Program-made: the position numbers and the translations under genes
The notes under the pieces: model-generated
The model's input: only the letters and a program-made list of their open reading frames with translations
What the model was told of the DNA's origin: nothing
Database searches by the model: none
NCBI RefSeq assembly: GCF_009914755.1
Contig: NC_060941.1
Length of the DNA: 64,000 bases
Reading direction: 5' to 3' (one strand)
DNA from: the human T2T-CHM13v2.0 reference genome, Homo sapiens
Part shown: piece by piece, positions 18,421 to 21,400 of the stretch
Numbering within the stretch: position 1 is the first letter of the stretch
How the letters are laid out: the number at the start of each line of letters is the position of its first letter

Positions 18421-21400
18421 GGGCATACCTTGGAAGATACTGCGGGTTCAGTTCCAGAGCACTGCAAAAAAAAATATTGCAATAAAGCAAGTCACATGAA
18501 TTTTTGTGTTTCCCAGTGCATAGAAAAGTTATGTTTAAACTACACTGTAATCTATTAAGTGTACAACAGCATTATGTCTAAACTGTACATAATTTAAAAA
18601 CACCTTATTGCTAATAAATGCTAATGCTCATCTGAGCCTTCAGCAAGTGATAATATTTTGCTGTTGGAAGGTTTTTGCCTTGATGTTGATGGCTACTGAC
18701 TGCTTAGGGTGATGGCTGCTGAAGGCTGGAGTGGCCGTGGCAAGACAATGAAGTCTGCCATGTTGATGGGCTTTTCCTTTCCTGCATGATTTCTCTGTAG
18801 CATCTGACGCTGTTGGACAGCATTTACCCACAGAAAAACTTTTTTTTTTTTTTTTTTTTTTTTTGAGACGGAGTCTCGCTCTGTCACCAGGCTGGAGTGC
18901 CTGGGCGTGATCTCGGCTCACTGCAAGCTCCGCCTCCCAGGTTCACGCCATTCTCCTGCCTCAGCCTCCCGAGTAGCTGGGACCACAGGCGCCCGTCACC
19001 ATGCCCAGTGAATTTTTTTGTGTGTATTTTTAGTAGAGGCGGGGTTTCACCATGTTAGCCAGGACGGTCTCGATCTCCTGACCTTGTGATCCGCCCGCCT
19101 TGGCCTCCCAAAGTGCTGGGATTACAGGCGTGAGCCACCGCGACTGGCCAGAACAACTTTTTGTTTTTTGTTTTTGAGACAGTGTCTTGCTCTGTAGCCC
19201 AGGCAGTGGCACAATCTCGGCTCACTGCAGCCTCTGCCTCCAGGGTTCAAGCAATTCTCCTGCCTCAGCCTCCCAAGTAGCTGAGACTACAAGTGGGCGC
19301 CACCACGCCCGGCTAACTTTTCTATTTTTAGTAGAGACGGGGTTTCAGCATGTTGGTGAGGCTGGTCTTAAACTCCTGACCTCAGGTGATCTGCCTACCT
19401 GCTGTGTTAACAGGCATAAAAACAACATTGCAGGCTGGGAGCGGTGGCTCACGCCTAGTAATCCCAGCACTTTGGGAGGCCGAGGTGGGCAGATCACGAG
19501 GTCAGGAGATGGAGACCATCCTGGCTAACAAGGTGAAAACCTCGTCTCTACTAAAAGTGCAAAAAAAAATCAGCCGGGCATGGTGGCGGGCGCCTGTAGT
19601 CCCAGCTACTCAGGAGGCTGAGGCAGGAGAATGGTGTGAACCCGGGAGGCGGAGCTGCAGTGAGCTGAGATAGTGCCACTGCACTCCAGCCTGGGCGACA
19701 CAGCGAGACTCCTTCTCAAAAAATAAAAAATCAAAAAACATTGCTCTCCTTACACAACTACATCAGAGCTCCAGGGTGACCAAGTACTGTGTGTGAGTGT
19801 GTGGTAGTGTGTGTGTGTTTTGAAACAGAGTCACACTCTGTCACCCAAGATGATACAGTGGCACCATCTCAGTTCACTACAGCCTCAACCTCCCCAGCTC
19901 AAGCGATCCTCCAACCTCAGCCTCCTGAGTAGCTGGGACTACAGGTGTACGCCATTACGCCCAGCTAATTTTTATTATTTTTTTGTAAAGACAGGGTTTT
20001 GCCATGTTCCTCAGGCTGGTCTTGAACTCTTGTGCTCATGTGACCCACCCATCTCGGCCTCCCAAAGTGCTGAAATTACAAATGTGCACCACTGCACCCA
20101 ACCTCGGTGCATTTTCAATGTGCAGTAATACATTGAAGGGAATTTTTTTTTTTTCTGAGTACCAAGCTTCAACAGTGGGCTTAAGATATTCAGAAAACCA
20201 TGCTGTAAACATAAGTGCTGTCTTACAGGCTTTGCTGTTCCATTTATAAACCAGGCAGAGTAAATTTAGCATGATTCTTAAAGAGGCCTCAAATTTTTCA
20301 AACAGTCAATGAGCACTGGTTTCAATTTAAATTCACCAGCTGCATTAGTCCCTAAGAAGCTGCATCAGCCTGTCCTATGGAGCTAGACACACTGACTTCT
20401 CTCTAGTTAAGTGAAGTCCTAGACAGCATTTTCTTCTAACACAAGGCTGTTTTGTCTACGCTGAAAATCTAAGTGGTGTGGTCACCATCAATAATGTTAG
20501 CTAAATCTGGATAATTTGCTGCAGCATCTACATCAGCACATGCTACTTGACCCTGTACTTTTTTTTTTTTTTTTTGAGACAGAATTTCACTTTGTCGCTC
20601 AGGCTGGAGTGCTGTCACAACGTCTCAGCTCACTGCGACCTCCGTCTCCTGGGCTGAAGCGATTCTCCTGCCTCAACTTCCCGAGTAGCTGGGATTACAG
20701 GCGTCTGCCACCACGCCCAGCTAATTTTTTGTATTTTTAGTACAGGCAGGGTTTCACCATGTTGGCCAGGCTGGTCTCAAACTCCTGACCTCGTGATCCG
20801 TCCGCCTCGGCCCCCCAAAGCGCTGGGATTACAGGCGTGAGCCACCGCGCTCAGCCGACCTTGTACTTTTTAAGTAATGGAGATGGCATCTTTCCTTAAA
20901 CCTTACTAACCAACCTCTGCTAGCTTCCAGCTTTCTATCTGTAGCTTTCTCACCTCTCTCAGCTTTCTTAAATTTGAAGAGAGTTAGAGGGTTGGTCTGA
21001 ATTAGGCTTTGGCTTAAGGGAATAGTATGGCAGGTTTGATCTTCTATTCAGACCACCAAAACTTTCTGTCAGCAAGAAGGCTGTTTTGCTTTCTCATCAT
21101 TGCTGTGTTCACTGGACTAGCACTTTTTAATCTCCTTGAAGAACTTTTCCTTTGCATTCACAACTGTGGTGCAAGAGGCCCAGCTTTCAGACCGTGTCTC
21201 GGCTTTTAAGGTAGCCTTCCTGACTCAGCTTCATCATTTCTACCTTTTTATTTAAAGTGAGAGACTGGGACTCTTCCTTTCTCTTAAACACTTAGAAGCA
21301 ATTGCAGGGTTGTTAATCGGCCTAATTTAAATATTGTTATGTTTCAGGTAATAGGTAAGCCTAACGGGAGGGAGAGAGACAGGGAGTCAGAACACAAACA

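What the first reader, a model, noticed from the sequence alone, without database searches (positions are those of the whole stretch)
18421..18474. Tigger1 terminus exonised as a 33-nt stop cassette that could switch 14-3-3 epsilon to a truncated isoform or NMD
Seen: on the sense strand, T9GCAG | 33 nt | GTATGC lies at the extreme 3' end of a Tigger1. Spliced after exon 1 it gives [25 protein letters not shown]-stop (TGA at 18450-18448), and the exon 2 ATG (Met23, MVESMKK) follows 21 nt after the stop. Established: a short 14-3-3 epsilon variant lacking residues 1-22 (the dimerisation helix) arises from a stop-containing exon between exons 1 and 2. Inference: this is that exon. Against the Tigger1 consensus as I recall it (TTATTGCGGTGGTCTGGAACCGAACCCGCAATATCTCCGAGGTATGCCTG), the donor comes from the TIR, while CpG decay appears to have created both the acceptor AG (GCGG to GCAG) and the stop (CGA to TGA). 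That would be a lineage-specific, transposon-built switch in a dosage-sensitive gene. I am not aware of the transposon origin being highlighted.
Basis: partly seen in the sequence, partly recalled or inferred. Interest (0 to 1): 0.8.

Follow-up and report, generated by a model that had tools for sequence, protein, structure and literature searches.

The report
Transposon end became YWHAE stop exon
The small stop-containing alternative exon already annotated in intron 1 of the human 14-3-3 epsilon gene is built entirely from the last 60 bases of an ancient Tigger-type transposon, an ordinary kind of event for an exon that was already known.

Summary
On the minus strand, T9-GCAG | 33 nt (18461-18429) | GTATGC is there. 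Joined to exon 1 it reads through 25 codons to TGA (18450-18448). The exon-2 ATG (Met23) follows 21 nt later. These bounds equal the RefSeq alternative exon in the hub table.

The exon, both splice sites and the U-tract lie in the last ~55 nt of a sense-oriented, Alu-riddled pogo/Tigger-type fossil that ends at 18420. The evidence is ordered CENP-B_N, HTH_Tnp_Tc5 and DDE_1 remnants and thousands of genomic copies ending at the same point, mostly followed by TA.

Each decayed state is present in roughly four of ten copies, so neither is special to this copy. The donor GT is ancestral. The uninterrupted T9 tract is rare: 0 of 55 sampled copies have a T-run of 7 or more.

Whether the exon acts as a "switch" is untested. 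A citing paper describes the variant as low-abundance in all tissues. The exon and isoform are known. I found no paper stating the transposon origin. Interest is modest.

The parts
18429..18461 (-). 33-nt cassette exon (RefSeq alternative YWHAE exon)
   Evidence: sequence; length and translation; the hub RefSeq table lists 18429-18461 as an exon of the other transcript.
18462..18465 (-). Acceptor GCAG. The AG (18463-18462) sits on an ancestral CpG of the transposon.
   Evidence: at this dinucleotide, 100 listed of 578 copies read CA 38, TG 34, CG 5, TA 7, others 16. AG in 20 of 55 chr1 copies.
18466..18474 (-). Uninterrupted T9 (U9) polypyrimidine tract. This is the copy-specific derived feature. 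Against the family alignment it reflects a 2-nt gap plus substitutions.
   Evidence: One search shows the gap and changes against 29 copies; longest T-run upstream of the AG is at most 6 in 55 of 55 other copies. T6+GCAG+TGNTCTGG occurs at only 13 places genome-wide, including this one.
18448..18450 (-). In-frame TGA stop. It is read only in the phase left by YWHAE exon 1.
   Evidence: stop at ORF nt 76-78; the other two phases of the cassette are open; dinucleotide tally TG 46, CA 27, CG 4, TA 5, other 18 in 100 listed of 760 matches.
18420..18428 (-). Donor GT (18428-18427) and the last 9 nt of the transposon's terminal repeat; the element ends at 18420.
   Evidence: homology of other copies ends here. 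Most end in GTATGCCTG followed by TA. The window copy reads GTATGCCCG followed by CA.
18420..18845 (-). 3' segment of the Tigger-type fossil (non-coding tail and terminus), sense to YWHAE
   Evidence: 40 scored genomic matches at 78-82% identity out of 3432 candidates; collinear matches to Alu-free copies L003, L004, L012, L018.
20106..20562 (-). Internal fossil segment carrying a DDE_1 transposase remnant
   Evidence: mapping. DDE_1, E 9.8e-4, 19.2 bits (below the 22-bit cut-off) for 20305-20036.
20858..21362 (-). Internal fossil segment carrying HTH_Tnp_Tc5 and CENP-B_N remnants
   Evidence: mapping. HTH_Tnp_Tc5, E 1.6e-5, 25.2 bits (above cut-off) for 21047-20829. CENP-B_N, E 2.2e-3, 18 bits (below cut-off) for 21291-21187.
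22013..22569 (-). 5' fossil pieces (22013-22075 and 22390-22513) separated by an Alu. The 5' end is tentative, near 22569.
   Evidence: matches to the 5' part of the chr13 copy (L089). The 5' terminus was read by eye and is only a 7-of-10 match to the terminal motif of L089.
48771..48834 (-). YWHAE exon 1 coding part (Met1 to first base of codon 22); donor ACG|GTGAGT
   Evidence: hub table.
13775..13779 (-). Start of exon 2 with the Met23 ATG (13777-13775), context A at -3 and G at +4

Best explanation
Origin. A pogo/Tigger-type DNA transposon (Tigger1 by my recall of its termini, and by its length) inserted in sense orientation into YWHAE intron 1. It was later broken up by at least five Alu insertions. 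Its last ~55 nt became a complete cassette exon.

Where each signal came from:
- The donor GT is the ancestral terminal-repeat sequence.
- The acceptor AG arose by decay of a CpG (CG to CA).
- The in-frame TGA arose by decay of another CpG (CG to TG).
- A copy-specific 2-nt loss plus substitutions turned the interrupted pyrimidine stretch into an uninterrupted U9 tract that abuts the AG.

Consequence (inferred). Inclusion between exons 1 and 2 ends the reading frame after 25 codons. The resulting mRNA is formally an NMD candidate. However, the stop lies only 78 nt from the start codon, and a well-contexted AUG (Met23) follows 21 nt later. Some ribosomes should therefore reinitiate and make the form lacking residues 1-22, which lacks helix 1 of the dimer interface.

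Inclusion is probably low and constitutive, a tolerated by-product rather than a demonstrated switch. Three features point that way: the exon is only 33 nt, the donor is sub-optimal (mismatches to the consensus at +4 and +6), and a U9 tract is also a prime hnRNP C site.

Shown versus inferred. Shown: the anatomy, the transposon origin and the ancestral states. Inferred: the NMD/reinitiation balance, the inclusion level and the regulators.
For: Anatomy and reading frame.

Annotation: the hub RefSeq table gives the same bounds.

Transposon identity:
- Ordered CENP-B_N, HTH_Tnp_Tc5 and DDE_1 remnants on the YWHAE strand.
- 3432 candidate genomic copies; 40 scored at 78-82% identity.
- Copies end at a common terminus. 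By my reading, it is followed by TA in about 23 of 29.
- A complete copy on chr13 measures 2278 bp. Papers mention a 2,307-bp Tigger1 (PMC10901741, passage) and an 'approximately 2,500-nucleotide' element (PMC4272801, passage).

Ancestral CpGs: the CA/TG/CG splits (hand tallies of the first 100 listed rows of 760 and 578 matches).

Copy-specific U9: 0 of 55 chr1 copies and none of the 29 copies aligned have a T-run of 7 or more. There are 13 genome-wide sites with T6 or more next to GCAG, including this one.

Low abundance: passage in PMC5794190.

Loss of the dimer-forming N-terminus: passages in PMC8455551.

U-tracts of 9 or more uridines as the strongest hnRNP C sites, competing with U2AF65: PMC3629564 passages.

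Sense-oriented intronic Tigger elements bound by SAFB proteins that suppress their exonization: PMC10901741 passages.
Against: - No RNA-seq, Ribo-seq or proteomic data could be consulted, so inclusion level, NMD sensitivity and reinitiation are inferred from sequence rules that I recall (the 50-55-nt rule, start-proximal NMD escape, reinitiation after short ORFs).
- A 21-nt spacer is short for efficient reinitiation.
- Two of the three Pfam matches fall below the curated cut-offs.
- The 5' terminal repeat of this copy is degenerate. A search for the inverse of its own 3' end found nothing at up to 6 mismatches in 20.
- The flank reads CA, not TA.
- The family name 'Tigger1' could not be checked against Dfam or Repbase.
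- YWHAE does not appear in the text or held supplements of the SAFB paper or the hnRNP C paper.
- It cannot be excluded that the source element already carried TG at the stop site; TG outnumbers CA 46 to 27.
Confidence: 0.72

Rival explanations
1. The cassette is a selected device for making a monomeric 14-3-3 epsilon. Its purpose is the protein lacking residues 1-22, which starts at Met23 by reinitiation after the 25-codon ORF. That protein cannot dimerise but keeps some functions.
For: The title of Han et al. 2010 and the way it is cited say a variant lacking the dimerising N-terminus exists and inhibits UV-induced apoptosis. The short ORF, the absence of an intervening ATG, and A(-3)/G(+4) at Met23 favour reinitiation.
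Against: I could not read the primary paper. One reviewer calls it a 'defective splicing variant'. Abundance is reported low. The 21-nt spacer is short. The AG and TGA states are common neutral decay products of the family, so no selection is needed to explain them.
Confidence: 0.15
2. The cassette is a regulated poison exon that tunes YWHAE dosage. Inclusion is held down by hnRNP C at the U9 tract and/or by SAFB proteins on the sense Tigger RNA. It rises when these factors fall, sending mRNA to NMD.
For: A U9 tract at the 3' splice site matches the class of strongest hnRNP C sites. Sense-oriented Tigger elements are SAFB targets whose exonization rises on SAFB loss. HNRNPC and YWHAE mRNA levels correlate positively across tumours, R = 0.55 (PMC9004556, passage); this is a weak, indirect hint.
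Against: There is no direct datum for this exon. YWHAE is absent from both papers' text and held supplements. 'YWHAE' with 'poison exon' gave 0 papers. A stop 78 nt from the start codon is expected (recalled rule) to trigger NMD poorly. The A-rich transposase region that SAFB recognises is fragmented by Alus here.
Confidence: 0.1
3. The resemblance to a transposon end is coincidental or the exon predates the insertion. That is, the exon is not transposon-derived.
For: None found.
Against: Every base from the U-tract to 9 nt past the donor aligns collinearly with 29 + 55 other copies, and homology stops at a shared terminus. The same 3' segment continues 425 nt upstream into the fossil.
Confidence: 0.02

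Closest known systems
Exonization of intronic transposable elements (the Alu exon paradigm; sense-oriented L1 and Tigger exonization in Ilik et al. 2024, PMC10901741)
   Same: Both splice sites and the exon body lie within an intronic TE. Point mutations after insertion create or strengthen the sites. The product carries a premature stop.
   Different: The TE here is a DNA transposon terminus rather than an antisense Alu. The donor is supplied ready-made by the terminal inverted repeat. The U-tract arose by local mutation, not from a poly(A) tail read in antisense.
14-3-3 epsilon 'SV' splice variant (Han et al. 2010, BBRC; RefSeq second YWHAE transcript)
   Same: A stop-containing extra exon between exons 1 and 2 and translation from Met23. 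The coordinates of the only annotated alternative exon match exactly.
   Different: Nothing differs at the exon level. What I add is its origin and the ancestral states. I could not read the primary paper.
hnRNP C / U2AF65 competition at long U-tracts (Zarnack et al. 2013, PMC3629564)
   Same: A continuous tract of nine U directly upstream of a cryptic or weak TE-derived 3' splice site.
   Different: Not an Alu, and there are no binding or knock-down data for this exon. The resemblance is by sequence feature only.
Start-proximal nonsense codons with downstream reinitiation (for example beta-globin exon 1 nonsense alleles; recalled from the NMD literature)
   Same: A short ORF of 25 codons that terminates close to the cap, followed by an in-frame AUG that gives an N-truncated protein and blunted NMD.
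   Different: Here the short ORF is produced by alternative splicing, not by mutation. The spacer is only 21 nt.

Membership tests
pogo/Tigger-type (TcMar-Tigger) DNA transposon fossil | Transposase remnants with CENP-B_N, HTH_Tnp_Tc5 and DDE_1 domains in that order on one strand | tested here: met
   CENP-B_N at 21291-21187 (E 2.2e-3, 18 bits, below the 21.2 cut-off). HTH_Tnp_Tc5 at 21047-20829 (E 1.6e-5, 25.2 bits, above the 22.2 cut-off). DDE_1 at 20305-20036 (E 9.8e-4, 19.2 bits, below the 22 cut-off). They are collinear on the minus strand. Two other pieces gave no match.
pogo/Tigger-type (TcMar-Tigger) DNA transposon fossil | Dispersed multicopy family whose copies share a precise terminus | tested here: met
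   3432 candidates, 40 scored at 78-82% identity on 16 of the 24 contigs; alignments end at the same base, equivalent to window 18420-18422.
pogo/Tigger-type (TcMar-Tigger) DNA transposon fossil | Terminal inverted repeats flanked by a TA target-site duplication | tested here: inconclusive
   Family level: about 23 of 29 copies are followed by TA (my reading). The chr13 copy starts with the inverse of the 3' terminal motif. This copy: the 3' flank reads CA. The 5' end near 22569 is only a 7-of-10 match by eye. An automated search for its own inverted end found nothing.
Tigger1 (named Repbase/Dfam family) | Best match to the Tigger1 consensus rather than another Tigger/MER family | not testable with these tools
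No repeat library is available. It also rests on a full copy of 2278 bp, compared with the 2,307-bp and ~2,500-nt Tigger1 sizes quoted.
TE-exonised cassette exon | Acceptor, exon body and donor all inside the TE, and the exon present in annotated transcripts | tested here: met
   for position. The hub RefSeq table supplies the annotated exon 18429-18461 (it is not one of my calls).
Poison (NMD-triggering) cassette exon | In-frame stop more than ~50-55 nt upstream of the last exon junction | tested here: met
   stop at ORF nt 76-78. Exon 2 alone (200 nt) and three further junctions in the window lie downstream (hub table).
Poison (NMD-triggering) cassette exon | Isoform stabilised when NMD is blocked; regulated inclusion | not testable with these tools
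   No expression data are available. 'YWHAE' + 'poison exon' gave 0 papers.
N-truncated isoform by reinitiation (14-3-3 epsilon SV) | Short upstream ORF, no intervening AUG, downstream AUG in good context in the main frame | tested here: met
   25 codons, 21-nt spacer without ATG, CAAGAAATGG context, and 0 ATG in the annotated 5' UTR.
N-truncated isoform by reinitiation (14-3-3 epsilon SV) | Endogenous protein starting at Met23 | not testable with these tools
   The primary paper is not held. Only citing sentences were seen.
hnRNP C-repressed U-tract exon | Continuous U-tract of about 9 or more at the 3' splice site | tested here: met
   (U9 at 18474-18466). The criterion comes from PMC3629564 passages.
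hnRNP C-repressed U-tract exon | hnRNP C crosslinking at the tract and increased inclusion on HNRNPC knock-down | not testable with these tools
   YWHAE has 0 occurrences in the main text and in the 2 held supplement files. Other supplements were not visible.

The most novel reading that the evidence does not exclude
The copy-specific U9 tract turned a latent, family-wide 'pre-exon' at the Tigger terminus into a cassette whose use is set by competition between U2AF65 and hnRNP C, and perhaps by SAFB proteins on the sense Tigger RNA. On this reading, primates gained a tunable valve on 14-3-3 epsilon: either dosage through decay, or the monomer-to-dimer ratio through the Met23 form. The 25-residue helix-1 peptide would be a possible third product.
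Probability: 0.1. Interest if true: 0.6.

Novelty: new member of a known kind. Interest (0 to 1): 0.3.

Why it matters
YWHAE lies in the 17p13.3 deletion region, where loss of one copy is linked to growth and cognitive phenotypes (title of Nagamani et al. 2009, seen in a reference list). Any route that diverts its pre-mRNA is therefore of some interest.

The result gives the known minor isoform a concrete evolutionary origin. It also shows that the 3' end of this transposon family is a ready-made exon: the donor is present from the start, and the acceptor and a stop are each one CpG transition away. Many sense-oriented intronic copies may therefore be latent stop cassettes; 4 of 55 sampled copies already carry all three signals.

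The result also points to one precise, testable regulatory feature, the U9 tract. It does not change what is known about 14-3-3 epsilon function.

Tried and rejected
- Self-BLAST of the 3' fossil segment against the 64-kb window found no second copy, so no in-window comparison was possible.
- The inverted-repeat scan of 15.5-22.5 kb was swamped by Alu pairs and did not reveal the element's ends.
- A search for the inverse of the copy's own last 20 nt upstream, allowing up to 6 mismatches, found nothing. The 5' end was then approximated through the chr13 copy, and only tentatively. The chr3 copy (L090) added nothing beyond 21338.
- Two stop-free pieces (20624-20469 and 18942-18640) gave no Pfam match.
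- Han et al. 2010 (by PubMed id) and my recalled PMC id for Pace & Feschotte 2007 are not held. The isoform paper's details and a published age for the family were therefore not seen.
- Literature searches linking the gene to the transposon turned up nothing relevant:
  - YWHAE+Tigger1 gave 1 paper and YWHAE+Tigger gave 2. The two papers are unrelated to this exon.
  - YWHAE+exoniz* gave 3 papers, all unrelated.
  - YWHAE+'poison exon' gave 0 papers.
  - NR_024058 gave 1 paper that only names the accession.
- Supplements of PMC10901741 (5 files held) and PMC3629564 (2 files held) contain no YWHAE. The Ensembl id I also searched for was recalled from memory.
- I considered a complex prediction for the truncated protein and dropped it.
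- Dating by divergence was done only roughly, because no primate genomes are available.
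Full report

Yes, to the base. Read on the minus strand (the YWHAE sense strand), one search shows these features:
- nine T at 18474-18466
- GCAG at 18465-18462
- 33 nt at 18461-18429
- GTATGC at 18428-18423

Searches give exon 1 and exon 2. In one search a script joined exon 1 CDS (48834-48771, 64 nt), the 33-nt cassette and exon 2 (13779-13580) by coordinates.
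- The frame runs 25 codons and stops at ORF nt 76-78 (TGA, window 18450-18448).
- The next ATG in any frame is 21 nt further on. It is the canonical Met23 codon (13777-13775), with A at -3 and G at +4.
- The annotated 5' UTR holds no ATG.
- The cassette contains a stop only in the phase left by exon 1. Its other two phases are open.

The hub's RefSeq table lists 18429-18461 as the sole exon of the other YWHAE transcript. The boundaries are therefore annotated splice sites, not a chance AG...GT pair.

**2. What is it made of?**

*Transposase remnants.* The minus strand between about 20.0 and 21.3 kb carries stop-free pieces that hit three Pfam families in the order of a pogo/Tigger transposase:
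- CENP-B_N at 21291-21187 (E 2.2e-3)
- HTH_Tnp_Tc5 at 21047-20829 (E 1.6e-5)
- DDE_1 at 20305-20036 (E 9.8e-4)

Only the middle hit exceeds Pfam's curated cut-off. Two further pieces hit nothing.

*Extent of the fossil.* The element is riddled with Alus. Comparison with Alu-free copies elsewhere maps the fossil to these pieces:
- 18420-18845
- 20106-20562
- 20858-21362
- 22013-22075
- 22390-22513

The 5' end is tentative, near 22569.

*Other copies.* The window holds no second copy. The window's own genome gave 3432 candidates for the 3' 286 nt, of which 40 were scored at 78-82% identity. Aligning the termini of 29 of them shows three things:
- Homology ends at window 18422-18420.
- Most copies end in GTATGCCTG.
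- By my reading, about 23 of 29 are then followed by TA, the target duplication expected of this superfamily.

The YWHAE copy reads GTATGCCCG followed by CA.

*Family name.* A complete copy on chr13 spans 2278 bp end to end and begins with the inverse of the 3' motif. That length fits the sizes quoted for Tigger1: a 2,307-bp copy (PMC10901741, passage) and 'approximately 2,500 nucleotides' (PMC4272801, passage). The name 'Tigger1' itself could not be tested, because no repeat library is available. It rests on recall.

*Conclusion.* The U-tract, acceptor, exon and donor all lie within the last ~55 nt of a sense-oriented Tigger-type fossil. The donor G is 9 nt from the element's end.

**3. Were the splice sites and the stop made by CpG decay?**

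I sampled the family without conditioning on the sites in question, using patterns with NN at the dinucleotide.

| Site | Matches (reversed-pattern control) | My hand tally of the first 100 listed rows |
|---|---|---|
| Acceptor dinucleotide | 578 (0) | CA 38, TG 34, CG 5, TA 7, other 16 |
| Stop dinucleotide | 760 (109) | TG 46, CA 27, CG 4, TA 5, other 18 |

A CA/TG split with a residue of CG is the signature of an ancestral CpG.

Neither state is unusual, however. I fetched all 58 chr1 matches and aligned them. I dropped 3 rows that show no homology outside the pattern (L040, L057, L073). Two doubtful rows (L037, L086) and two duplicate pairs (L053/L054, L074/L075) were kept. Among the remaining 55:

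| Feature | Copies out of 55 |
|---|---|
| AG at the acceptor | 20 |
| TGA at the stop site | 25 |
| GT at the donor columns | 29 |
| All three together | 4 (L059, L061, L071, L081) |

The donor count is a lower bound, because small alignment shifts hide some GTs.

TG outnumbers CA at the stop site. I therefore cannot exclude that the source element of some copies already carried TG.

**4. What is special to this copy?**

- *The U-tract.* Other copies read an interrupted pyrimidine stretch ending in ...TTTATTG before the CpG. The YWHAE copy has a 2-nt gap and substitutions that give nine uninterrupted T. In the chr1 sample the longest T-run in the 20 nt upstream is 6 or fewer in 55 of 55 copies (3 T in 40 of them), and the longest pyrimidine run is 8 or fewer. 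Genome-wide, T6 or more directly before GCAG plus the exon start occurs at 13 places, including this one.
- *Length.* A 1-nt T insertion makes the exon 33 nt. The equivalent stretch is 32 nt in 43 of 55 copies.
- *Divergence.* Over the 3' ~426 nt, the copy is 13.8% diverged from the majority at non-CpG columns. The median for the 29 others is 9.6%. Those 29 were the best-scoring hits, so their figure is biased low.

[quoted passage not shown] When the AG, TGA and U9 arose cannot be told without other primate genomes.

**5. How it most likely works**

*Shown.* Inclusion inserts an in-frame stop after codon 25.

*Inferred from recalled rules.*
- The stop lies far upstream of the last exon junction, so the mRNA is a formal NMD candidate.
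- A stop only 78 nt from the start codon usually triggers NMD weakly.
- A 25-codon ORF followed by a well-contexted AUG allows reinitiation, although 21 nt is a short spacer.
- Reinitiation would give a protein lacking residues 1-22. Helix 1 (residues 2-16) contacts helices 3 and 4 of the partner in 14-3-3 dimers. [quoted passage not shown]

*Expected inclusion level.* I expect it to be low for three reasons:
- The exon is very short.
- The donor AAG|GTATGC departs from the consensus at +4 and +6, whereas exon 1 has ACG|GTGAGT.

I therefore read it as a tolerated, mostly constitutive by-product of transposon decay. It yields some decay-prone mRNA and a little truncated protein. It is not a demonstrated switch.

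**6. A lead worth testing**

Zarnack et al. 2013 report two relevant things (PMC3629564, passages):
- The strongest hnRNP C sites are continuous tracts of nine or more U.
- hnRNP C competes with U2AF65 at such tracts next to 3' splice sites, repressing TE-derived exons.

Ilik et al. 2024 report that SAFB proteins bind sense-oriented intronic Tigger elements and suppress their exonization.

The private U9 in a sense-oriented Tigger fits both settings. The same mutation that made a good U2AF65 site may thus also have made a repressor site.

YWHAE is not mentioned in either paper's text or in the supplements held. This remains a hypothesis. A pan-cancer correlation of HNRNPC and YWHAE mRNA, R = 0.55 (PMC9004556, passage), is at most a faint hint.

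**7. Comparison with what is known, and novelty**

The exon and the isoform are known from RefSeq and from Han et al. 2010. For that paper I saw only the reference and citing sentences; the paper itself is not held. Exonization of intronic transposable elements and stop-containing cassettes are well-known kinds.

I found no paper linking this exon to a transposon:

| Search | Papers found | Relevance (calls where read) |
|---|---|---|
| YWHAE+Tigger1 | 1 | unrelated |
| YWHAE+Tigger | 2 (includes the paper above) | unrelated |
| YWHAE+exoniz* | 3 | unrelated |
| YWHAE+'poison exon' | 0 | none |

The library omits most subscription journals, and anyone viewing a repeat track would see the overlap. 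I file the finding as a new member of a known kind, of modest interest.

The more general point is that this family's 3' terminus is a latent stop cassette. The donor is built in, and the acceptor and the stop are each one CpG transition away. That is a small but reusable observation.

**8. Limits**

- No expression, ribosome-profiling, proteomic, CLIP or comparative-genomic data could be consulted.
- The family name is recalled.
- The tallies cover the first 100 listed rows only (chromosomes 1-2) and were counted by hand.
- About 14% of matches may be chance, judged by the reversed-pattern control.

Noticed in passing
window 18846-20105 and 20559-20857: At least five Alu elements have inserted into the Tigger fossil, four of them packed between 18846 and 20094. 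A short (CA)n-like run sits at about 19790-19820. Only slivers of transposon remain between them.
   Followed up: partly
L053/L054 (G000:C1:127.75 Mb and 127.90 Mb) and L074/L075 (G000:C1:206.80 and 206.82 Mb): Two pairs of near-identical or identical copy termini, flanks included, on chromosome 1. These are presumably segmental duplications carrying the same insertion, so the 55-copy sample holds 53 independent insertions.
   Followed up: no
L059, L061, L071, L081 (chromosome 1 copies): These four copies already carry AG, the TGA and the donor GT at the terminus, like the YWHAE copy but without a long T-run. Whether any lies in sense orientation in an intron and is spliced was not checked, because no annotation was available.
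   Followed up: no
window 48831-48771 (exon 1): A second ATG overlaps the start codon region one codon downstream, in another frame (ATGGATGATC...). In the variant transcript that frame stays open through the cassette into exon 2. It was read by eye and not analysed.
   Followed up: no
tally: At the stop-site CpG, the TG state outnumbers CA 46 to 27 in the listed sample. At the acceptor CpG the two are even (34 to 38). This could reflect a subfamily whose source already had TG, or related MITE families matching the pattern.
   Followed up: no
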